DNA of 41,318 nt from Clostridium phage slur17, in the sequence record LN881738.1; one strand, given 5' to 3'. Below, piece after piece: positions 1 to 41,318 of this stretch (positions are counted from its first letter, which is position 1; each line of letters begins with the position of its first letter). The notes beneath the pieces are model-generated. The model saw nothing but the letters and a program-made list of their open reading frames with translations. It was not told the DNA's origin and ran no database searches. The translations under genes and the position numbers were made by a program.

Positions 1-595
1 TGTCTGTAACTTCTTTAGTTAGAGTATCTTTAGTAGTATTAACATCACTAATCATGCTGTTTTTAGCGTCTGTAACTTCTGTAACTTTAGAGTCGAAAGT
101 TTCTTTTATACTATTAAATTCTTCGACTCTTTTAATTTCTGCTTCTTTTCTTGCTTCTTCTGTTTCTTTTATTTCTTCTATGCCTTCGACGACTTCTTTT
201 ACTTGATTTATTGTAACGCTGATATAATCCCATTTCGGTTCTTCTGTAATACTGTTTTTATCTATACTTTTCTCTATATTAATCTTTAAAGAAAAAGTAG
301 TAACAACTAAATCATCTTTGTAGAAAGTAAACTCTACTATTACATCCCCCGCAACTTCTGTTATGTTATTTTCTATTATAGTTGTTGCAATAGAATTTTC
401 TATAGTACAGCTCTGATAAACTATTTTCCCGTCTGGTCTTTGAAAATTTGCTATAGCTGTATATCCTGTCAAATCTTTTTCTATATTATTTTCTAATAAA
501 TTAATCTTAAATTCTATTGCATTATCATATTGCTTATATTTTGCAACTTGGTAACTTTTAGTGTTAATATCTACTGTATAAATTCTATCTCTCAA
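1..595 (-). CDS. Tail fibre / baseplate upper protein (BppU-like N-terminal domain); 5' part only, ORF runs off the left edge
   Basis: Absent from the ORF track because there is no stop in the window. TTG at 595-593 follows AAAGGAGTG (601-609), and the frame stays open to base 1. Translation is LRDRIYTVDINTKSYQVAKYKQYDNAIEFKINLLENNIEKDLTGYTAIANFQRPDGKIVYQ..., followed by a coiled-coil-like stretch ...EEFNSIKETFDSKVTEVTDAKNSMISDVNTTKDTLTKEVTD. Confidence 0.75.
   Translation of the reverse strand, partial: MRDRIYTVDINTKSYQVAKYKQYDNAIEFKINLLENNIEKDLTGYTAIANFQRPDGKIVYQSCTIENSIATTIIENNITEVAGDVIVEFTFYKDDLVVTTFSLKINIEKSIDKNSITEEPKWDYISVTINQVKEVVEGIEEIKETEEARKEAEIKRVEEFNSIKETFDSKVTEVTDAKNSMISDVNTTKDTLTKEVTD
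29..127. repeat. 99-bp perfect direct repeat, copy 1 (partner at 41192-41290)
   Basis: Base-by-base comparison shows identity from tttagtagtattaacatcac... to ...attcttcgac. The flanks are only partly similar. Confidence 0.9.
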
Positions 596-609
596 ATTTA
601 TCACTCCTT

Positions 610-852
610 TTACTCTACCATTTTTGGAGTAAATTCTTTTATTATTTCTTTTTCCTTTAATACAAATTTTCCGTTTTCAATTTTATAATCACGAGGATTT
701 AAAATTTCTGGAATATCCTCGACAACTATTTTATCTAATATTTGCCTATAATCCTCTTCCCTATCTGCAAAGCAGGTATAATCCTGCTCCATCTCTGATT
801 TTATGCAATTATATATTTCTCCAGTTCTCTTGCTGTAAAAAATAGTAACCAT
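610..852 (-). CDS. Hypothetical small protein in the tail module
   Basis: 80-aa ORF tightly packed between the Tal gene and the fibre gene on the same strand. No motif recognised. Confidence 0.6.
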   Translation of the reverse strand: MVTIFYSKRTGEIYNCIKSEMEQDYTCFADREEDYRQILDKIVVEDIPEILNPRDYKIENGKFVLKEKEIIKEFTPKMVE

Positions 853-14453: not shown

Positions 14454-15026
14454 CTATATGTTCAACATTTCTCTATTTTTTGCTATCATTTGTTCCATTA
14501 AACTTACTTTAGACTCTCCAGCATCTCCACCGCTAGAACTAACAACCTTTGGAACACTATTGCCATTTATAAAAGCCCCTGGGTCATTTGCCTGCAATTC
14601 TTTTATATAATCATCTGCTCCCTCAAAAGCCCCGTTCTTATATTCAAGTCCCTTCTCTTTCATTTTTATTTTTACAGCCTCTTTTGAGAGATTGCTAGAA
14701 AACTTAAAATTACTTAAATAATTATCTAAATTTAAGTTATAAGTTTGCTCTGACATTTGATTTTCAATCAATTCCTTATCTTTTTGAGCCTGTTCGGCTT
14801 TACTCTTCCAGTCATCAACCTCTTTTTTTATACTCTCAACATCTATTTTTTCTAAGTCTTTAATTTTATTATTAGCTGTTTCGAGTTCAGTATTTTTACT
14901 TTCCAATTCTTCTTTTTTCTTTTCTACTTCTTTTTTATACTTTTCTATATCCCTCCCATTTTCGGACATGATTTTTTCTATAACCTCATCCTCTAAATTT
15001 AAATCTTTCAAAAACTCTCTTTTCAT
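14454..15026 (-). CDS. Scaffolding protein (phage GP20-like)
   Basis: MKREFLKDLNLEDEVIEKIMSENGRDIEKYK followed by an E/K coiled coil. Located upstream of the capsid gene. Confidence 0.75.
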   Translation of the reverse strand: MKREFLKDLNLEDEVIEKIMSENGRDIEKYKKEVEKKKEELESKNTELETANNKIKDLEKIDVESIKKEVDDWKSKAEQAQKDKELIENQMSEQTYNLNLDNYLSNFKFSSNLSKEAVKIKMKEKGLEYKNGAFEGADDYIKELQANDPGAFINGNSVPKVVSSSGGDAGESKVSLMEQMIAKNREMLNI

Positions 15027-15149
15027 AAAAACCTCCTGTTTTCATTTACAATTACGCTTTTTTACGTGGTAGCATCACATATTGTCTAACTTTTTACGTC
15101 GCTTAGTAGACATCTATATAAATGAATTAAGTATTTTAAGCATAAAAAT

Positions 15150-19742: not shown

Positions 19743-20436
19743 AGATTTCTGCCTCTATCTCTTCTATATCCTCTATTTCTAAGTCATTACCAGTCAACTT
19801 ATTTGTTCTCGCTTTTATGTTTTCTATTCTGCTTTTTTGTTCTTCTGTTGCTAAATCCCAATTTTTATGAAGTAGTTCCTCATAGTCTTTTATCATTTTG
19901 GACAAAGCTTTAAATGCTGTCGCCTCTGCCTTCATAGCATTTGTAACTTTATCCCAAGAGTGTTGAATTTCATACTCTTTAATTTTATTACCATTTTTCT
20001 TAATGTCAGTTGTATGGTCTTTTTTATTTTTGACATGGGTAATCTTAAAAGAATCTAATATTTTCGCATACTGAACTACTATACTGTTCCAAAGAATGTC
20101 TAAAGAATTGCCACCATCCTTCTCGATATATTTAACAATCTCGTAAGTTCTAGCAGGCAAAAGCTTAGAGAAAAATCCATGAGTTCTAGCATTTTGATTA
20201 TTCGCTGGTGCGCCTCCTTCATGCCCTAAAGCATTTTGGTTGCCGGCTGGTGCGCCAACTTTCTTATTTATTCCAAGTCTATAATCCCATCTATCAATTT
20301 TTTTCCAACGACTAATATTGCAACTTTTTTCTTCTAACATTTTAGAGATATCAATTAATTTTATTCTCCCATTTTTCTCCTTGTAAATCTCAAACGCTTT
20401 TTCTCGATTGGAATTTTTTATTGAAATACAAATCAA
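19729..20436 (-). CDS. terS: Terminase small subunit (YjcR-like HTH type)
   Basis: NREKAFEIYKEKNGRIKLIDISKMLE..ISRWKKIDRWD together with the duplicated GAPAGNQNA / GAPANNQNA motif. The start codon is uncertain because the TTG at 20436 abuts the SD. Confidence 0.75.
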   Translation of the reverse strand: MICISIKNSNREKAFEIYKEKNGRIKLIDISKMLEEKSCNISRWKKIDRWDYRLGINKKVGAPAGNQNALGHEGGAPANNQNARTHGFFSKLLPARTYEIVKYIEKDGGNSLDILWNSIVVQYAKILDSFKITHVKNKKDHTTDIKKNGNKIKEYEIQHSWDKVTNAMKAEATAFKALSKMIKDYEELLHKNWDLATEEQKSRIENIKARTNKLTGNDLEIEDIEEIEAEIYGSN

Positions 20437-20445
20437 CTCCTTTCA

Positions 20446-20472
20446 ATAAAAAAAGACTAAGTACCTAGTCTT
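20446..20472 (-). terminator. Hairpin plus T-run between the serine recombinase gene and terS
   Basis: aagacta (20453-20459) pairs with tagtctt (20466-20472). On the minus strand it is followed by TTTTTTTATT. Confidence 0.5.
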
Positions 20473-21034
20473 CTTGTTTTCGCTTTGCTCTTTGTAATGT
20501 ACTCTTACTAATCCCTGTCATTCTCTCTACTTGCGTATAAGAATTAGTTTTTAATAACTCTAAAGCATGTTCCATTTGCATCTTAGTATATTTTTTAGGT
20601 CTACCTTCCCGGAAATTAGGATTTTGCTTTGCTATCTCCTTACCTGCAAAAGTTCGTTCTAAAATTAGATTCCTTTCCATTTCTGCAACTGCAAGCAAGG
20701 TTGTTATAAAAAACTTGCCAAGAGTAGTATTTTCTAAAAGCCCAACATTAAGCACATGAACAGAAATACCACTATCAAATAAATTTTGTATAAGATTAAT
20801 ACCTTCTGTTGCATTTCTTGCAAGTCTATCCAATTTAGTTACAACTAATTTATCACCATCACGCATTTGCTTAACCATTTCCTCAAAAATAGGTCTGTGC
20901 GTGGTTGACCCTGTATGTTGTTCCCTAAATATTTTAGCATCACTATAATGTCTTTTTATTTCCTGCTCCTGCTGTTCTAAACTATTATTATCAATTTGTA
21001 CTTTACTACTTACCCGACAATACCCAAATATCAT
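20465..21034 (-). CDS. Small serine recombinase (resolvase/invertase family)
   Basis: [13 protein letters not shown] catalytic N-terminus, [10 protein letters not shown], and a C-terminal HTH ([13 protein letters not shown]). ATG at 21034 follows AAGGGG. Confidence 0.85.
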
Positions 21035-21498
21035 AAAAATACACCCCTTACTTTTGACCATTAGTTATGACTACCTTCTATATGTTCATTTTACTACATA
21101 ATCAAATCGTAGTCAATACCGTACAGTTATGAATACGAGTGAATTTTTTTAAATGAATCAAAAGTACTTATAAGTATTGTCATTACTCTTGCAAAAGGGC
21201 GTAATTGAATTGTTTGCCTGTGAATTTTGTAGTTTTTATTGCATCAAACTCATTCTCTATTTTTCCATGTCCTTTAAGTTTTGTCCGTATGTCCTTAAGC
21301 TTCGTCATGGCCATTTTAATGTTAAATAGCTTCTATCCCAGTATTTATAATGGCTAACGCCTATTTTAACGAATATGGGGTTTTCTTAGAGAATCAGACA
21401 TTCACTTTTTACTTTTCCTACTTTATATATAGCGAAAAAAATACATTGAATATATAAGCCTTTATTTTTCCCACATTCAAAAAGACAAAATAAAAAAA

Positions 21499-22107
21499 TC
21501 ACCCTATTAGGTCATTTAAAAACATGCTATATTCTTGATATTGTTCTTCATTAAGACCTAGATATACCTTAGTTTCTTCTATACTAGAATGTCCAAGCAT
21601 TTCCTTAACTCTTATAATATCAAATCCACTTTCTTCGTATATGGTGTAAGCGTATGTTTTACGCATGCTATGCGCTGTTATATGCTTAAGTCCAAAGTAT
21701 CTACCTGCTTCTTTCAGTATCACTGTTACTCTCTCAACGCCTATATGCGGAGTAACAGATTTTTGCCTGGATGGGAACATATATTCATAGTCCTTTTTAT
21801 CTCGTATGTAGCTTTTGAGTACTCTTTCTAAATTAGGAACTATTGGAGCTTTTCTAGGCTTTTTATTTTTCTTTCTTATGTTCTTAGTCTTTTCTTTTTT
21901 ACTCTCCATTATTAAGAAATAACCTTCGTCTATTGCATTTCTAACGTCCCTTACCTGTAGTTTAACTAAATCCCCTGCCCTGTAGCCCGTAGCCACCCCT
22001 AAGACAAATAAAACATAATTTCTAACACTCTTTTCTTTTAAGTATTCTTGTATATTTAAGACCATACGTTTGTCTTTGACTGGGTTAGCTGGTTTCTTAC
22101 TACCCAC
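21499..22107 (-). CDS. Small tyrosine recombinase (Xer-like, no arm-binding domain)
   Basis: HSMRKTYAYTIYEESGFDIIRVKEMLGHSSIEETKVYL carries the R..H..Y-type C-terminal catalytic pattern. Only 202 aa. Confidence 0.8.
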   Translation of the reverse strand: MGSKKPANPVKDKRMVLNIQEYLKEKSVRNYVLFVLGVATGYRAGDLVKLQVRDVRNAIDEGYFLIMESKKEKTKNIRKKNKKPRKAPIVPNLERVLKSYIRDKKDYEYMFPSRQKSVTPHIGVERVTVILKEAGRYFGLKHITAHSMRKTYAYTIYEESGFDIIRVKEMLGHSSIEETKVYLGLNEEQYQEYSMFLNDLIG

Positions 22108-22284
22108 TTCTATTCACCTTCTCAACCCCCTTAAAATATTAATTTGCATTATAAAAAGCCCAACATTCCTGCCAGGCTTCAAATCTATATCTATTTAATT
22201 TTAAACTTCTTGATATTAATATTATACACTATATAAACGTAAAAGAGTGTTCTAACTTTGTCTTAAAAACCGTCTTTTTTTGTT

Positions 22285-22857
22285 CTATAAAAGACTTCCA
22301 CTTTCAAAAAGCATTTCGGCAAGTTCTTTCAATGCTTCCTTGTGTTTATAATGAACATTACTGCGACTACATTTAATCTTTGAGGCAATTTCTTCATTAG
22401 AAAGTTTACTTGCGCCATCATAAAAATACATAAATTTTATAATTTGTTGCTTCTCTTCTGTAAGTTCACTTATGTAAATATCCATTAGTCTCAATCTATA
22501 TTCTATAAAATCAATTTCACTTTCTTTAAATGATATTTTATCCTCATTATTCATAATCATTTCATCTATGCCCTTCGGGCTAGAATGTATTTTAAACCCT
22601 AGTTCATTGAAATTTATCTCTCTATAAAATTCTTTATCTTTTAAAAAATCTATCTCTTTTCTTAGAATATCTACTCTTCTTTTCTTATTTCCAAGTTCAA
22701 TTAAATATTCTTTGGTTTCTTCAACTAAGCAAGAACTTACGTTTTTTTCTTTGTCTTTTTTATACTTTCTTTCGCATGATTTACAGCAAAATCCGTTTTT
22801 TGACTCTGTAAAAAATGACTTACCGCACCATGAACAAATCCTTTTCTTTTTTGCCAT
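22285..22857 (-). CDS. Putative late-gene transcriptional activator (N-terminal zinc ribbon plus sigma-70 region-4-like HTH)
   Basis: CSWCGKSF...CCKSCERKY at the N-terminus. The C-terminal LSNEEIASKIKCSRSNVHYKHKEALKELAEML resembles ArpU/RinA/sigma r4. Confidence 0.55.
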   Translation of the reverse strand: MAKKKRICSWCGKSFFTESKNGFCCKSCERKYKKDKEKNVSSCLVEETKEYLIELGNKKRRVDILRKEIDFLKDKEFYREINFNELGFKIHSSPKGIDEMIMNNEDKISFKESEIDFIEYRLRLMDIYISELTEEKQQIIKFMYFYDGASKLSNEEIASKIKCSRSNVHYKHKEALKELAEMLFESGSLL

Positions 22858-27505: not shown

Positions 27506-27694
27506 GAGCACATGTACGATTTTTTGTCGCAATTAAACATTTATACTACAATAATAGTACCTTTTATCAAATTTTGCTAGTGGAAAATAATTCCAATTCA
27601 AAATACATTGAATTTTCTTACATTAGGAAAGTTCAGGGTCAATTTTTTTAACCTTGCGATTTTCCATTTGGTATAAGTTTTATATTTTCACATC

Positions 27695-27760
27695 AAAAAG
27701 TCACGCAAGTAGGAATATATATATATATATATATATTAAATCCTACTTGCGTGACTTTTT
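27695..27760. terminator. Palindrome A: 15-bp stem around an (AT)n loop with A/T-run flanks (probable bidirectional terminator)
   Basis: gtcacgcaagtagga (27700-27714) pairs with tcctacttgcgtgac (27741-27755). The loop is (AT)11 followed by taaa. Confidence 0.6.
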
Positions 27761-27764
27761 GTTC

Positions 27765-27908
27765 TTAGATGCAAATTTCTAGTTGCTCTACTAACTCTAT
27801 TTCTTTTTCAATTTTAAATCCTATGTCAAATTCATTGTTTAAAAATGCCTTTTCAATTTCATCTAATTTACTCAATAACCTCTGTTTTCTAGTTTTTATA
27901 GCATTTCT
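27765..27908 (-). pseudogene. ORF remnant ending ...EIELVEQLEICI* with no canonical start
   Basis: 47-codon open frame with no ATG or GTG; the only TTG has an SD just 3 nt away. Its 3' end is homologous to the 21-codon mini-ORF at 28020-28085. Confidence 0.3.
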
Positions 27909-27957
27909 TTAAATATTGTATGCTAATTATGTTTATTTTAATTGATGACTCATTATC

Positions 27958-28015
27958 AAAAAGTCAGTCGACCTGGAATATATATATATATATATTCCAG
28001 GTCGACTGACTTTTT
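27958..28015. terminator. Palindrome B: 16-bp stem around a (TA)8 loop. Same flanks as palindrome A but a different stem sequence
   Basis: gtcagtcgacctggaa pairs with ttccaggtcgactgac in a perfect palindrome. Left flank atcaaaaagtca and right flank tgactttttgtt.ttagatgcaaatttcta are shared with A. Confidence 0.6.
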
Positions 28016-28077
28016 GTTTTTAGATGCAAATTTCTAATTGTTCTTTTGATTCTGTTTCTTTTTGATTAAATACAATT

Positions 28078-32369: not shown

Positions 32370-32585
32370 TATAATATAAAAATATTACTGTAATATTATA
32401 AAAATATTATTTTAGTATTGTATATACAATATTTTAGTATTTTTAATATAATATATTGGTATTGTAAAAGCAATATGTAAATATTGTATTTATATTATTT
32501 GAATATTGTAATTAACAATATTAATATATTGTTGCAATATTATAAAAACAATACTACAATATTATTATAATATTATAAATATAAT
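32370..32585. repeat. Centromere-like cluster of ATATTG/CAATAT palindromes upstream of parA
   Basis: Examples: aatattacTgtaatatt, agtattgtataTacaatatt, aatattgtaattaacaatatt, atattgttgcaatat. Confidence 0.55.
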
Positions 32586-32600
32586 AATGAGGTGGAGAAA

Positions 32601-33410
32601 ATGGCTAATACAAAGCTACTTACGTACTTTAACATAAAAGGAGGTATCTATAAGACAACAACGTCTATAATGACAGCGTATGAACTTGCGAAAGATAAAG
32701 ATAAAAAAATACTCTTATGGGACTTAGATGTGCAAGCAAATCTAACACAATATGTTTATGAAATAAATCATAATGATAATACTACATTAGATATTTTAAA
32801 AGGGATTAGTGCTAATGATGCAATAGTCAAGTCACCTAATGAAAATTACATTAATGTAGACTTAATTCCTTCTGACATACAAATGGCTAGATTTGAACAA
32901 GAGCTATCACCTTTACCAGCCAGAGAAAAATTTTTAGCTCGCTGGTACATGCAAAACTTTAATACTTTGAGTGAGTATGATTATATTATCTGTGATTTAT
33001 CTCCACGCTACGATTTGACAGCTAAAAATGTGCTTTTCTTAGCAGATAGTATAATTATTCCAATTCAAGATAAAAACATTTCTTCTTTAAGAGGAGCAGA
33101 ATTATTTAAACAACTCTGGGATGTTGATAGAACCTATTTTGATAAGGAGGATAATATAAAAAGTACTATTTTAGTTGGATTTGAGAAGAAGAAAACTCAA
33201 ATTAGCGATACTTTCGATTCTTATCTGGAAGGGTTTAACGATATGAGAGATATTATGTTAGATACATACATTAGAAAAAATGAGTTTATAGAGAAGGCAC
33301 TATTAAAAAAACTATCTCTAACAGATTATACAAAAATAACTAAAGAGCATTTCAGCAGACAGGAATTTACTAATATGTTAGAAGAATTGAAAAGAAAAGG
33401 AGTGTTATAG
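32601..33410 (+). CDS. parA: ParA-family partition ATPase (deviant Walker A)
   Basis: KGGIYKTT Walker A, LLWDLDVQANLT, and the CDLSP motif. ATG at 32601 follows GAGGTGG. Confidence 0.85.
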   Translation: MANTKLLTYFNIKGGIYKTTTSIMTAYELAKDKDKKILLWDLDVQANLTQYVYEINHNDNTTLDILKGISANDAIVKSPNENYINVDLIPSDIQMARFEQELSPLPAREKFLARWYMQNFNTLSEYDYIICDLSPRYDLTAKNVLFLADSIIIPIQDKNISSLRGAELFKQLWDVDRTYFDKEDNIKSTILVGFEKKKTQISDTFDSYLEGFNDMRDIMLDTYIRKNEFIEKALLKKLSLTDYTKITKEHFSRQEFTNMLEELKRKGVL

Positions 33411-33743
33411 ATGCCAAGTTTCAACAGAGACCTTTTAGTTGATAAAGAAAAACCGATTTTGAAAAATGGAACAATCGTACAAAATGATTCTACAACTACA
33501 GACAATAAGACATTAAACATATATAATCTAGTTAATAAGAAAAGTAAAAAAGTGACTATGAGTGCAACGCTTGATGAGGAGCTTGTAAACAAATTAAAAT
33601 CTTTTTCTATTGATATGAACAGCGACGTTAGTAAATTATTAAGTGATATACTAACTCAAATTTTATCTGATGTCACTATAAAAGAAGAGAATTTAAATAT
33701 ATACAATGAGAGAAATAGAAGAAATAAGACTAAGAAAAAGTAA
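33411..33743 (+). CDS. Partition adaptor, probable ribbon-helix-helix centromere-binding protein (ParG/ParR-like role)
   Basis: TAGATG junction with parA. KKVTMSATLDEELVNKLKSFSIDMNSDVSKLLSDIL fits a beta-alpha-alpha RHH pattern. Confidence 0.6.
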   Translation: MPSFNRDLLVDKEKPILKNGTIVQNDSTTTDNKTLNIYNLVNKKSKKVTMSATLDEELVNKLKSFSIDMNSDVSKLLSDILTQILSDVTIKEENLNIYNERNRRNKTKKK

Positions 33744-33744
33744 A

Positions 33745-33860
33745 TAATATTATATTTATATTGTTTAGATATTACTTAAATATTGTATATATAATATTTA
33801 AGTAATATTTTAATATTATTATTACAATATATTAATATTGTTTAAATAATATGTTTTAAC
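33745..33860. repeat. Second centromere-like palindrome cluster downstream of the par genes
   Basis: 40-bp palindrome atattacttaaatattgtatatataatatttaagtaatat at about 33770-33809, plus acaatatattaatattgt. Confidence 0.5.
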
Positions 33861-37901: not shown

Positions 37902-39752
37902 TTAAATTGCTTGATACATTGCGTAAGTAAAATAACCGTCTCCGCTTTGGTCATATCTAGCCCCGCCTAATGTTATAAACTTTTTGGTTTCATCTTTATA
38001 GCCATTTCCTCTGCCTGCTTCTATACTTGTATTGTAGCCATGATACACAATTCCATAATAACTATTACCTTTATATCCATAACAATAAGTTATGCCTACA
38101 TAAGTACTATTAATAGTTTGCGGTGGGTTATCATCAGCATCCGCAAAGCCTGTGATAGTTCTAAAATAAGCAGTACTTCCTTGTATTGTGTTCTGTATAT
38201 TATTTTTGTAAGTTTGTAAAGTTGAATTTTTGCTAATTAATATGCTTTTAGCTGTATTACTTTTAACCATTCTGTTAAGTGCAAGTCCTGTAAGTGTTAT
38301 TTTGGTCATAGCCGTTGAGCTATTTGCAATTATGCCCATTGCTGTTGTATTATTTACAAAAACACTTATAGACGTATCGTTATTTGCAACTGTCGACATA
38401 GCTTGTGCGTTATTTGCAATTATGCCCATTGCTGTTGTATTATTTGCAATAGTAACGTTATTTTCTGAAATAGTGAGCATAGCATTGAAAGCAGTAGAGT
38501 TATTTGCTATCTTAGTAAAAGCAGTAGTTTTATTTACTAAAATATTTATAGCTGTTGTACTTTTCATAAAAGCATTTAATGACACTGTTTTACTGAAAAT
38601 ACTTTCTATAATTCCCACTCGGTCACCAACTTTATTTACTATAATAGAATTATTTGCAAAAGTTGCCATTGCGATTGAACTTTCTAAAATTGCATCCGAA
38701 ATTTTTATTTTTTCCTCAATATCTCGTTGTGATATATTACGTGTGGTTTCCATACCATCATAATTTTTTACTGCATTTTTTAAAATCGGGAATATTTCTT
38801 CATTATAAGTTATTGCCATAATTTGACCTTTACCAGAAGCAATATTTGATTTTATTGTATTTATATAATTTAAAGAAGTTTGTAAATTATACTTCATTTC
38901 TAATAAATTAGGGATTATTTTTTCAACAGTAACATTATTAGTTAATATTTTATTTATGCTATTTTGGTTTTGCACTAATACTTTTGTAGCTTCTAAGTCA
39001 TTAAATATTTCCATTACGGAGTTTTCGTTACTTGAAATTTGTGTCATAGCTTCATCACTATTTATAATCGCATCCCTAATCACATTATTTTTTAAAATTG
39101 CTCTAATGACTGGTGACTCTGTTGTAACTCTTAAAATATATTGACCTAATAAATCCATAGCATTTGAACTTGCTACAACTGCGTCCATGCTTGATTTACA
39201 CATAGTTAAAGCTACTATTGCATTACTATTATTAAGTATTGCATTAGTAGCTTCCACATTTGCTAATATTTCTTCTATAGTTGTAAGATTTTCTAAATCA
39301 GTATTATCTAAGCTAAAAGTAGAATTAAACCATGCTCCTATAGTTGACTTTTCTTGTTCTCTTGTAACATATCTATCATACCCTGCTTTAAATTTTTCCT
39401 CTAATGAATTATAATGCTCTATAGTCATTTCTTTTACTACATTATCAGCATTTCCTAAGCTAAATATATCTGTTCTATAAAAGGCATTTAATTGTTCCCC
39501 TAGCTTAGTGCTTTTATTAAATAAATTATCAATATCAGTTTCTGAAAAAGCTGTGTAAACTGTTTCTCTTATTCCTCTATCAGAAAATAAATATAAACTA
39601 TTTAAATATAATTCTTCCCATATCCTAGCATTTCCAATAAACAGCACATAACTATCTAATCCATTTAGTTTTATGTCTTGCAAATAACTTAAAAAATTTA
39701 GTGGCTCGCCTTGCAAGTCACTATTCACTTTGTATGTCTCCGCCCAACTCAT
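37902..39752 (-). CDS. Tail fibre-associated / receptor-binding candidate (616 aa) with degenerate NxTA(M)..IAN repeats
   Basis: Start overlaps the fibre stop codon by 1 nt (39752). Repeats include TTAMGIIANNAQAMSTVANNDTSISVFVNNTTAMGIIANSSTAMTKI. A 33-bp DNA segment is duplicated at about 38326 and about 38415. Confidence 0.65.
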   Translation of the reverse strand: MSWAETYKVNSDLQGEPLNFLSYLQDIKLNGLDSYVLFIGNARIWEELYLNSLYLFSDRGIRETVYTAFSETDIDNLFNKSTKLGEQLNAFYRTDIFSLGNADNVVKEMTIEHYNSLEEKFKAGYDRYVTREQEKSTIGAWFNSTFSLDNTDLENLTTIEEILANVEATNAILNNSNAIVALTMCKSSMDAVVASSNAMDLLGQYILRVTTESPVIRAILKNNVIRDAIINSDEAMTQISSNENSVMEIFNDLEATKVLVQNQNSINKILTNNVTVEKIIPNLLEMKYNLQTSLNYINTIKSNIASGKGQIMAITYNEEIFPILKNAVKNYDGMETTRNISQRDIEEKIKISDAILESSIAMATFANNSIIVNKVGDRVGIIESIFSKTVSLNAFMKSTTAINILVNKTTAFTKIANNSTAFNAMLTISENNVTIANNTTAMGIIANNAQAMSTVANNDTSISVFVNNTTAMGIIANSSTAMTKITLTGLALNRMVKSNTAKSILISKNSTLQTYKNNIQNTIQGSTAYFRTITGFADADDNPPQTINSTYVGITYCYGYKGNSYYGIVYHGYNTSIEAGRGNGYKDETKKFITLGGARYDQSGDGYFTYAMYQAI

Positions 39753-41318
39753 TAACTCACCTCTTCTTTTATTTCTTCTATTTGATTACCTTTAAAAGTC
39801 GTTTTTACTTTACTTACTAATACATTATCTATATATTTTTCGTCTACTATAGTCCCATCTGCATTAAATTTAGTTATAGTTTTACTAACCGAGTCTAAAA
39901 TATCTGTTATAGAGCCGTCTGAATTAAAAGTCGTGCTTTTTTTAATGTAATCTAACTCTTTCGGTTTTTCTAATAACTCATTCCATGTAACTTTTCCTTT
40001 TGACGCTTTCCCCGTGTCTTCTCCATTTATAAACCAATTACCGTTTTCGCCGATTGCTGGAGTATAACCTTGTTCCCCTCTAAGCTCTGTATATATATAT
40101 TCCGTTTGTCCTTCTTCTCTAATACCTAGCTGACTTCCATTCCAATTAAATTCTAATTTATTTCCTGTCGCTCCTTTTAGATTTGTATAGCTATAGTCCT
40201 CTTGACCTTCTATTCTAACGCCTAGCTCCGTACCATCCCAACTAAATTCAATGCTATCGCCTTTTTGACCTTTCAAATCTGTATAAGTATAATTCTCCTG
40301 TCCTTCTATCCTTACACCTAGTCGTGTGCCATCCCATGCAAATTCGATATTGTCACCTTTGAGGTCTATATACTTATAATCTAATTCGTATTGTTGCCTA
40401 ACGCCTAACTGTGTGCCATCCCAATTAAATTCTAGGTTCTTGCCGTCCACGCCCGCTAGAGAACCTAAGTCTTCCCATTTAGTTTGATATATATAAATAT
40501 TTCTCCCTATAATCCAGCAATCTCCGATAGTAGGGTCTAATGGTAAGTTATCTATAGAATCTAATTTTCCTAAAATCCTCAAAGATGCCCCTCTAGCTGG
40601 TTTTTGGGTATCTATATTATTAATCCACCAGTTTCCATTTTCTCCTATTGTTGGAGTATAACCCTGCTCCCCTTTCAATTCTGTATAACTATAATTTTCT
40701 TGACCTTCTATCTTTATACCTAATCGTGTGCCATTCCAATTAAATTCAATACTATCACCTTTATCGCCTTTTTGACCTTTTAAATCTGTATAAGTATAAT
40801 TCTCCTGTCCTTCTATCCTTATACCTAGTCGCGTGCCATCCCAATTAAATTCTAAGCCATCTCCATTTTCACCCTTTATTTTTATGTCAGGAACTTTGAC
40901 CCAATTAGTGTTGTCCCAAACATATAAATCAATTTGGTTTTCTATTGTTGCGCTTTTTACAAAGTAAGCATCACTTAAAGTTGGATTGACTGGAAGTGCT
41001 GATATATTATCTAAACTTCCTTTTATTTCTATTCCTACCCCTTTTAACTCTTCTTTTGTGGGGATTGCATTAATAGCGTCTGTAACTTCTGTCTGCATAG
41101 TTTCTTTAGCTGTAGTTACTTCGCTAATCATAGTATTTTTAGCTGTTGTAACTTCCGCTTTAACTGTGTTAACTTCGTCTATTAATGTTGTTTTAGTAGT
41201 ATTAACATCACTAATCATGCTGTTTTTAGCGTCTGTAACTTCTGTAACTTTAGAGTCGAAAGTTTCTTTTATACTATTAAATTCTTCGACCCTTTTACCT
41301 TCTGCGATTTCTAATTCT
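39752..41318 (-). CDS. Tail fibre, 3' part (frame open to the right edge; the track start at 41218 is an internal Met)
   Basis: Upstream of the track Met the frame reads ELEIAEGKRVEEFNSIKETFDSKVTEVTDAKNS. About 7 modules of (L/I)EFNW(D/N)GTxLGxRxEGQxxYxYTxLKG, plus two GYTPxIGENGNW(W/F)IN motifs typical of Gram-positive phage fibres. Confidence 0.75.
   Translation of the reverse strand, partial: ELEIAEGKRVEEFNSIKETFDSKVTEVTDAKNSMISDVNTTKTTLIDEVNTVKAEVTTAKNTMISEVTTAKETMQTEVTDAINAIPTKEELKGVGIEIKGSLDNISALPVNPTLSDAYFVKSATIENQIDLYVWDNTNWVKVPDIKIKGENGDGLEFNWDGTRLGIRIEGQENYTYTDLKGQKGDKGDSIEFNWNGTRLGIKIEGQENYSYTELKGEQGYTPTIGENGNWWINNIDTQKPARGASLRILGKLDSIDNLPLDPTIGDCWIIGRNIYIYQTKWEDLGSLAGVDGKNLEFNWDGTQLGVRQQYELDYKYIDLKGDNIEFAWDGTRLGVRIEGQENYTYTDLKGQKGDSIEFSWDGTELGVRIEGQEDYSYTNLKGATGNKLEFNWNGSQLGIREEGQTEYIYTELRGEQGYTPAIGENGNWFINGEDTGKASKGKVTWNELLEKPKELDYIKKSTTFNSDGSITDILDSVSKTITKFNADGTIVDEKYIDNVLVSKVKTTFKGNQIEEIKEEVS
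41192..41290. repeat. 99-bp perfect direct repeat, copy 2 (partner at 29-127)
   Basis: Identical to 29-127. Exactly 28 nt separate each copy from its window edge. Confidence 0.9.

What the first reader, a model, noticed from the sequence alone, without database searches (positions are those of the whole stretch)
41164..41318. 99-bp perfect direct repeat placed exactly 28 nt inside both window edges, within tail-fibre coding sequence
Positions 29-127 and 41192-41290 are identical. The immediately adjacent sequence is only partly similar on each side. Both copies lie on the same strand, inside open fibre reading frames, and encode …EEFNSIKETFDSKVTEVTDAKNSMISDVNTTK….

The left copy belongs to an ORF with a BppU-like N-terminus (start at 595) that leaves the window. 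The right copy belongs to an ORF that enters the window and ends at 39752.

There are two possible interpretations. These may be two ends of one circularly permuted fibre gene containing an internal repeat on which the assembly broke. Or there may be two paralogous fibre genes sharing a recombination cassette that could swap receptor-binding C-termini. Joining base 1 directly to base 41318 leaves the frames out of register (1 + 1 leftover bases) and creates a stop codon, so 3n+1 nt would have to be missing.
Basis: seen in the sequence. Interest (0 to 1): 0.55.

Follow-up and report, generated by a model that had tools for sequence, protein, structure and literature searches.

The report
Assembly break inside fibre-gene tandem repeat
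The 99-base repeat near both window edges is what remains of a real 228-base tandem repeat inside one tail-fibre gene of the known C. difficile phage CDHS1, where a short-read assembler cut the circular genome and dropped 301 bases; it is ordinary.

Summary
Window 29-127 and 41192-41290 are identical, and this is the only exact repeat of 99 nt or more in the window (chance about 3e-44).

The window is the reverse complement of Clostridium phage CDSH1/CDHS1 (KU057941.1, 41,619 bp), rotated. It is 100% identical over all 41,318 bases and lacks 301 nt (record 20437-20737). Those bases lie inside one gene, CDHS1_21 (Gp21, 823 aa). Gp21 is a BppU-type baseplate/fibre protein whose alpha-helical stalk contains 2.43 perfect copies of a 228-nt (76-aa) tandem unit.

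The window equals exactly the longest unitig of a k=127 de Bruijn graph of the circularised CDSH1 genome. This explains both numbers: 99 = 555 - 2x228 and 28 = 127 - 99.

The second option, two paralogous fibres with a swap cassette, is wrong.

Copy number of the unit varies from 1 to 4 among close relatives. Many other public assemblies also break or carry a gap at this array. Nothing here is new, and interest is low.

The parts
1..604 (-). 5' part (201 codons + 1 base) of the tail-fibre/upper-baseplate gene, equal to CDHS1_21 (Gp21) and phiCD38-2 gp20. It has a BppU_N beta-sandwich followed by the start of the helical stalk, and runs off base 1.
   Evidence: 100% identical to KU057941 19833-20436. 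Translation. Pfam BppU_N. The AF2 model has strands at 15-127 and a helix at 139-197.
29..127 (-). First copy (R1) of the 99-nt segment of the 228-nt tandem unit. This 99-nt segment is the part of the unit that occurs three times in the reference gene.
1..127 (-). Terminal 127-mer of the contig (R plus the next 28 nt of the unit). It is a branching vertex of the k=127 graph, because it occurs in array copies 1 and 2 of the reference.
39752..41318 (-). 3' part (1 base + 521 codons + stop) of the same fibre gene. It holds the end of the helical stalk and then roughly 35-aa beta-type repeats in two blocks.
   Evidence: 100% identical to KU057941 20738-22304. Translation. The AF2 model has a helix at 2-83.
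41192..41290 (-). Last copy (R3 in the reference) of the 99-nt segment.
41192..41318 (-). Terminal 127-mer of the contig (the last 28 nt of a unit plus R). It is a branching vertex, because it occurs in array copies 2 and 3 of the reference.
   Evidence: It matches L002 2011-2137 and 2239-2365 at 100%.
37902..39752 (-). Gp22, the experimentally shown receptor-binding protein of CDHS-1 (616 aa). It lies immediately downstream of the fibre gene and does not carry the repeat.
   Evidence: Annotation. Literature.
610..852 (-). 80-aa hypothetical protein (CDHS1_20) immediately upstream of the fibre gene.
   Evidence: No Pfam hit.
20436..20437 (.). The point where the two ends of GenBank record KU057941 (bases 1 and 41619) are joined without gap or overlap. 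The contig runs through the deposited genome's ends, so the assembled molecule is circular or circularly permuted.

Best explanation
The window is a short-read, de Bruijn-graph contig (k = 127, as in SPAdes) of a circular or circularly permuted genome identical to C. difficile siphophage CDHS1 (Leicestervirus CD382, the phiCD38-2 group). These phages persist as plasmid prophages.

The single gene for the BppU-type baseplate fibre (Gp21) contains a perfect tandem array of 2.43 copies of a 228-nt unit (555 nt), encoding 76-aa modules of a long alpha-helical stalk. Because the array's exact self-similarity (327 nt) exceeds k, the graph branches. The one long unique path therefore stops at the first and last fully repeated 127-mers.

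The contig keeps 127 nt of the array at each end. These ends share only the 99 nt that are present in every copy, leaving 28 nt outside at each edge. The inner 301 nt are lost into two short loop edges (327 and 155 nt).

Shown: the sequence identity, the exact unitig reconstruction, and the frame restoration. Inferred: the assembler that was used, and that the source carried exactly 3 copies rather than 4 or more.

Biologically, the repeat is a modular spacer of the fibre stalk. Its copy number changes by unequal recombination or slippage between the 228-nt units.
For: - Identity: rc(KU057941 1-20436) + rc(KU057941 20738-41619) equals the window, with 0 differences in 41,318 nt.
- Unitig: the k=127 unitigs of circularised KU057941 are 155, 327 and 41,318 nt, and the longest equals the window. 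k = 77, 99, 119 and 141 give other lengths.
- Copy number needed: the window is reproduced only when the source has 3 or more R copies, not 1 or 2.
- Array: TRF finds period 228, 2.5 copies, 99% matches in the reference gene. R copies sit at gene positions 478, 706 and 934.
- Frame: inserting the 301 nt restores CDHS1_21 exactly (823 aa).
- Independent records carry the same three-copy array: phiCD38-2, AR1075-1 (a circular record) and plasmid CP021446.
- Other assemblies fail at the same place. 5 of 8 IMG/VR contigs end inside the array. An ENA scaffold has 100 N in it. An NCBI contig starts at the first base of R, with 15 similar places not shown.
- Structure: the repeat region is predicted as one continuous helix, with pLDDT 83-94. 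Its hydrophobic period is 3.6-3.65 and it has an 11-residue sub-repeat.
- Literature: phiCD38-2 replicates as a circular plasmid (PMC4009436).
Against: - The reads and the assembly graph of the source are not available, so k = 127 and the assembler are inferred only from the exact fit.
- The true copy number in the source could be 3, 4 or more. All of these give the same contig.
- Nothing observed contradicts this explanation.
Confidence: 0.96

Rival explanations
1. Two separate paralogous fibre genes, or two prophages, share a 99-nt recombination cassette that allows receptor-binding C-termini to be exchanged.
For: - The two copies are at opposite ends of the window with divergent flanks.
- Fibre genes are often mosaic (general knowledge).
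- A second gene annotated 'tail fiber protein' lies next door.
Against: - In seven complete or annotated records of near-identical phages and plasmids, the N-terminal and C-terminal parts belong to one ORF, with the R copies 228 nt apart in tandem.
- The window matches one of them at 100%, with only 301 in-array bases absent.
- The neighbouring gene (Gp22) has no R copy (one search finds R only in the array).
Confidence: 0.01
2. The source genome has a single R copy (as in the phiCD146 record). The contig ends overlap on R, and the outer 28 nt at each end are assembly noise or come from a strain variant. The true circle would then be 41,163 bp.
For: - Collapsing the ends on R gives an in-frame 671-aa ORF.
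- phiCD146 has exactly this single-copy form.
Against: - The outer 28 nt at both ends are not noise. They match at 100% the sequence that follows R1 and precedes R3 in CDSH1 and phiCD38-2.
- A genome with 1 or 2 R copies gives no branch at k=127, so it would not produce a contig ending like this.
Confidence: 0.02
3. The repeat marks a physical terminal redundancy (a direct terminal repeat) of the packaged phage DNA.
For: Repeats near both ends of a viral contig are commonly used as a sign of a complete genome (general practice).
Against: - The contig termini themselves are not identical.
- The repeat lies in the middle of a structural gene.
- The deposited genomes start at the small terminase gene, 20 kb away, and the window runs seamlessly through that point.
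Confidence: 0.01

Closest known systems
Clostridium phage CDSH1/CDHS-1 (KU057941.1), gene CDHS1_21 / Gp21 (ALY06964.1)
   Same: The window is 100% identical over all 41,318 nt. Gene order is the same. The fibre gene is restored exactly by the record's bases 20437-20737.
   Different: The window is reverse-complemented, starts and ends inside the fibre gene instead of at terS, and lacks 301 nt of the tandem array.
phiCD38-2 gp20 (AEF56895.1) and other Leicestervirus fibre genes (phiCD146, phiCD111, AR1075-1; plasmids CP021446, pB12_1, pCd23_2)
   Same: They share the architecture: a BppU_N domain, a helical stalk with 76-aa modules, and a beta-repeat C-terminal half, followed by the RBP gene.
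   Different: The number of R copies differs: 1 in phiCD146, 2 in phiCD111, 3 in phiCD38-2, AR1075-1, CP021446 and pB12_1, and 4 in pCd23_2. In phiCD111 and pB12_1 the copies have diverged from R by 4-9 mismatches. AR1075-1 has one extra 35-aa beta repeat.
BppU (upper baseplate protein, ORF48) of lactococcal phage TP901-1
   Same: Both have the N-terminal BppU_N domain (Pfam; HHpred match to PDB 3UH8 reported in bioRxiv 10.1101/2021.07.05.451159). Both are located at the baseplate, upstream of the RBP gene.
   Different: Gp21 is much longer (823 aa), with a roughly 240-aa repeated helical stalk and a large beta-repeat C-terminal half. No PDB sequence relative was found, and the Foldseek comparison of the N-terminal model was inconclusive.
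Repeat-induced contig breaks in de Bruijn-graph assemblies
   Same: The contig ends are k-mers that occur more than once in the genome. The contig equals a unitig, and the repeat interior goes into short separate edges.
   Different: Nothing differs. This is a textbook case. The only twist is that a 2.43-copy array leaves a 99-nt shared core set 28 nt in from the ends, instead of a clean terminal overlap.

Membership tests
Leicestervirus CD382 (phiCD38-2 / CDHS1) genome | Near-identical nucleotide sequence over the whole genome | tested here: met
   100% identity over 41,318 nt to KU057941.1, in two blocks that join across the record ends. 99.9-100% identity to phiCD38-2 at the ends.
Leicestervirus CD382 (phiCD38-2 / CDHS1) genome | Plasmid-prophage gene set (ParA partition gene, resolvase, no chromosomal flanks) and circular topology | tested here: met
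   - ParA at window 32592-33410 and a recombinase family protein are annotated in identical records.
- The window contains no host DNA.
- Related records are deposited as circular plasmids.
- Plasmid replication of phiCD38-2 is reported in the literature.
De Bruijn-graph repeat break (assembly artefact) | Both contig termini are k-mers that occur two or more times in the true genome, and the contig equals a maximal non-branching path | tested here: met
   The k=127 unitig of circular KU057941 equals the window exactly. Other k values do not reproduce it. Three or more R copies are required.
Direct terminal repeat of a complete circular viral contig | Identical sequence at the very start and very end of the contig | tested here: not met
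   No terminal overlap of 10-400 nt exists. The shared 99 nt sit 28 nt inside each end.
BppU-type upper baseplate / fibre protein | N-terminal BppU_N domain | tested here: met
   PF10651, E = 4.9e-9, 36.5 bits against a cut-off of 23.1, residues 19-137. The AF2 model shows a beta sandwich at residues 15-127.
BppU-type upper baseplate / fibre protein | Structural similarity of the N-terminal domain to solved BppU or baseplate proteins | tested here: inconclusive
   Foldseek against the PDB gave no hit with E <= 0.001. The best phage hit was a chain of the 80alpha baseplate, 6v8i_AN (E = 0.034, 71 columns). The model is single-sequence, with pLDDT about 72.
BppU-type upper baseplate / fibre protein | Trimeric assembly that links the RBP to the baseplate core | not testable with these tools
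   Immunogold labelling places Gp21 at the baseplate, and anti-Gp21 serum does not neutralise the phage (bioRxiv 10.1101/2021.07.05.451159). Oligomeric state was not examined here.
Paralogous fibre genes with a shared recombination cassette | Two separate genes, each with its own start and stop, each carrying one copy | tested here: not met
   In all complete relatives there is one ORF with the copies in tandem at 228-nt spacing.

The most novel reading that the evidence does not exclude
The copy number of the 76-aa helical module (1 to 4 among otherwise near-identical phages and plasmid prophages, with 100% identical copies in the CDHS1 lineage) may be a fast-switching length polymorphism of the Gp21 stalk. 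It would arise by unequal recombination or slippage. It could change how far the baseplate fibres or the RBP reach toward the C. difficile S-layer, and so tune adsorption or host range.
Probability: 0.15. Interest if true: 0.35.

Novelty: already known. Interest (0 to 1): 0.07.

Why it matters
It matters mainly as a caution. A repeat sitting just inside both ends of a phage-sized contig can come from a tandem array that is longer than the assembler's k-mer. It need not be a terminal repeat or a pair of paralogues. Here the contig is a complete genome minus 301 bases of one gene, and that gene would be annotated as two fragments.

The same array breaks or gaps many public assemblies of phiCD38-2-like plasmid prophages. 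Fibre-gene comparisons drawn from short-read data, including the single-copy phiCD146 form, should therefore be treated with care.

The real biological content is a copy-number-variable 76-aa stalk module in a BppU-type fibre. It is a modest, testable lead for work on C. difficile phage host range.

Tried and rejected
- A simple terminal overlap (circular contig signature): none found.
- Other k values for the unitig reconstruction (77, 99, 119, 141): none reproduces the window.
- Source genomes with 1 or 2 R copies: no graph branch, so they cannot give this contig.
- PDB sequence search with full-length Gp21: no hit.
- Foldseek of the N-terminal model against the PDB: only generic Ig-like sandwiches, plus a weak phage 80alpha baseplate hit. 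Inconclusive.
- AF2 single-sequence model of the C-terminal 521 aa: only the helix at residues 2-83 is confident. The beta-repeat half has pLDDT below 50 and was not interpreted.
- pCd23_2 (41,319 bp) looked like a possible source because of its length. It is a different relative with 4 R copies and other differences.
- Not run, because the conclusion does not depend on them: a census of fibre lengths with the large protein databases, and the metagenome contigs and genome-contig collection scans.
- The source sample of the window was not identified. No IMG/VR contig of 41,318 nt was returned.

Full report
**Observation.** Window 29-127 and 41192-41290 are identical (99 nt, same strand). It is the only exact repeat of 99 nt or more in the window, and no 100-mer is repeated. 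With the window's base composition, the expected number of such pairs is about 3e-44.

The 28 nt outside the repeat match at only 13/28 positions at one end and 17/28 at the other. The contig termini themselves do not overlap.

Both copies are read on the minus strand and encode VEEFNSIKETFDSKVTEVTDAKNSMISDVNTTK. The left reading frame starts at 604 (GTG) or 595 (TTG) and runs off base 1. The right frame enters at 41318 and stops at 39752-39754. Joining base 1 directly to base 41318 shifts the frame and gives a stop at codon 204.

**What the window is.** Both ends match Clostridium difficile siphophages of the genus Leicestervirus at 97-100%.

A whole-window comparison with Clostridium phage CDSH1/CDHS1 (KU057941.1, 41,619 bp) gives two blocks at 100% identity. 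Window 1-20436 equals record 20436-1, and window 20437-41318 equals record 41619-20738. Rebuilding rc(record 1-20436) + rc(record 20738-41619) reproduces the window with zero differences.

So the window is this phage, reverse-complemented and rotated. The ends of the GenBank record are joined seamlessly at window 20436/20437, and exactly 301 nt (record 20437-20737) are absent.

Those 301 nt lie inside one gene, CDHS1_21 (record 19833-22304, 823 aa, annotated as tail fibre protein). Putting them between window base 1 and base 41318 restores that gene exactly.

**Why 99 and why 28.** In the reference gene, Tandem Repeats Finder reports a 228-nt period with 2.5 copies at 99% matches. The 99-nt segment R occurs at gene positions 478, 706 and 934 with no mismatches. 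The perfect array is therefore 2 x 228 + 99 = 555 nt, and it is self-identical over 327 nt at an offset of 228.

- The last 127 nt of the window occur twice in the reference, in array copies 2 and 3.
- I built de Bruijn graphs of the circularised CDSH1 genome. At k = 127 there are two branching vertices and three unitigs of 155, 327 and 41,318 nt, and the longest is exactly the window. At k = 77, 99, 119 and 141 the lengths differ.
- The contig therefore stops at the first and last 127-mers that lie wholly inside the array.
- The two terminal 127-mers share only R (99 nt), which leaves 127 - 99 = 28 nt outside it at each end.
- The missing part is 555 - 2 x 127 = 301 nt.
- Simulated genomes with 1 or 2 copies of R give no branch at all. 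Genomes with 3, 4 or 5 copies all give the same 41,318-nt contig.

The source must therefore have had at least 3 copies. The exact number cannot be read from the window. The use of a k = 127 assembler is an inference from this exact fit.

**The gene and the repeat.** Full-length Gp21 has an N-terminal BppU_N domain (PF10651, 36.5 bits against a cut-off of 23.1).

- A single-sequence AlphaFold2 model of the window's N-terminal part shows a beta sandwich at residues 15-127. A continuous helix follows at residues 139-197, with pLDDT above 90 over the R-encoded residues.
- The model of the C-terminal part starts with a helix at residues 2-83 (pLDDT 83-90). The beta-rich remainder has low confidence.
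- The stalk region has a hydrophobic period of 3.6-3.65 residues and an 11-residue sub-repeat: self-identity is 0.25 at lag 11 and 0.71 at lag 76. This fits an amphipathic helical coiled-coil-type stalk built from 11-residue repeats. It also explains why the flanks of R are 'partly similar'.
- No PDB sequence relative was found, and the Foldseek search was inconclusive.

Published work on CDHS-1 describes Gp21 as BppU-like. It locates Gp21 at the baseplate by immunogold labelling and finds that anti-Gp21 serum does not neutralise the phage. The next gene, Gp22 (window 37902-39752), is the receptor-binding protein, shown by neutralisation, binding assays and a crystal structure (bioRxiv 10.1101/2021.07.05.451159). 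phiCD38-2 replicates as a circular plasmid in lysogens (PMC4009436). That fits the circular assembly and the ParA gene in the window.

**Relatives.** The number of R copies differs among close relatives:

| R copies | Records |
|---|---|
| 1 | phiCD146 |
| 2 | phiCD111, IMG/VR locus L010, NCBI contig L018 |
| 3 | phiCD38-2, CDSH1, AR1075-1 (circular record), plasmid CP021446, pB12_1, L009, L013, L022 |
| 4 | pCd23_2 |

Royer et al. noted that gp20/21 differs among phiCD38-2, phiCD146 and phiCD111 (PMC10100898). The differences between these forms are whole 76-aa modules.

The phiCD146 single-copy form is exactly what a collapsed assembly would give. That record alone does not prove a one-copy phage.

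The mechanism I infer for the variation is unequal homologous recombination or replication slippage between the 228-nt units. The 100% identity of the copies in the CDHS1 lineage suggests recent expansion or homogenisation. This is inference, not shown.

**The break is recurrent.**
- Five of the eight IMG/VR contigs that encode this N-terminus end inside the array, at gene positions 492, 582, 797, 919 and 938.
- An ENA metagenome scaffold has a 100-N gap in the array.
- An NCBI WGS contig of 41,440 nt begins at the first base of R, with 15 similar places not shown.
- The identical Gp22 protein is found mostly on contigs of 20-50 kb (96 of 109 blocks). This shows the element is usually assembled as its own contig of roughly 41 kb.

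**Rivals.**
- Two paralogous fibre genes or two prophages: excluded by the single ORF in all complete relatives and by the 100% match.
- A single-copy genome with noisy ends: excluded because the outer 28 nt match the array interior exactly, and because genomes with 1 or 2 copies would not break.
- A physical terminal repeat: excluded because the termini are not identical and the deposited genome ends lie 20 kb away, where the window is continuous.

**Verdict.** The repeat is real, but its placement 28 nt inside both edges is an assembly artefact in an already deposited and studied phage. Novelty: already known. Interest: low. The one lead worth keeping is that the stalk-module copy number varies from 1 to 4 among near-identical phages and might affect adsorption. 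This is untested.

Noticed in passing
window 32373-32586 and 33747-33859: AT-rich arrays of iteron-like repeats with 11/22-nt spacing, in inverted orientation (83-nt arms, 77% complementary). They bracket the plus-strand ParA gene (32592-33410) and a 110-aa ORF (33411-33743). They are probably the partition (centromere-like) sites of the plasmid prophage.
   Followed up: no
window 27692-28063: Two large palindromes with (AT)n centres: 27694-27761 (34+34 nt, 91% complementary) and 27957-28016 (30+30 nt, 100%). An 86-nt direct repeat (27723-27808 / 27978-28063, 80% identity) lies in the same region, which has few listed ORFs. This could be an origin, a terminator pair or a regulatory site.
   Followed up: no
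window 15053-15112 (-): An Rfam GP20-b RNA motif (RF03003, 55 bits against a gathering score of 36.2) lies just upstream of the scaffolding-protein gene (14454-15026, minus strand).
   Followed up: no
window 40063-40432 and 40657-40852 (-): The C-terminal half of the same fibre gene holds a second repeat system: units of about 35 aa, 'EFNWDGTxLGIRIEGQENYTYTDLKG', in two blocks. One pair is 93% identical over 91 nt at 507-nt spacing. Phage AR1075-1 has one extra unit. There is no Pfam match, and the AF2 single-sequence model was not confident.
   Followed up: partly
window 38307-38569 (-): A 30-nt (10-aa) periodic repeat inside the receptor-binding protein gene gp22. The preprint on Gp22 describes a superhelix built of short alpha-helices, which such a repeat would suit.
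   Followed up: no
L004 (phiCD146, LN681536.1) 839-2863: The phiCD146 fibre gene has a single R copy, joined exactly as a collapse of the array on R would produce. The deposited 674-aa form may be an assembly collapse rather than a natural allele.
   Followed up: partly
L020 1418-1517; L021 1; L007, L008, L011, L012, L014 contig ends: Many public assemblies of this phage group break or carry an N gap inside the same 228-nt array. Fibre genes from those records are truncated or split.
   Followed up: yes
L015 (pCd23_2, NZ_CP037803.1) 38227-40917: This complete circular C. difficile plasmid carries four perfect R copies (896-aa fibre). At 41,319 bp it is only 1 bp longer than the window despite other differences, such as a shorter tape measure gene.
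   Followed up: partly
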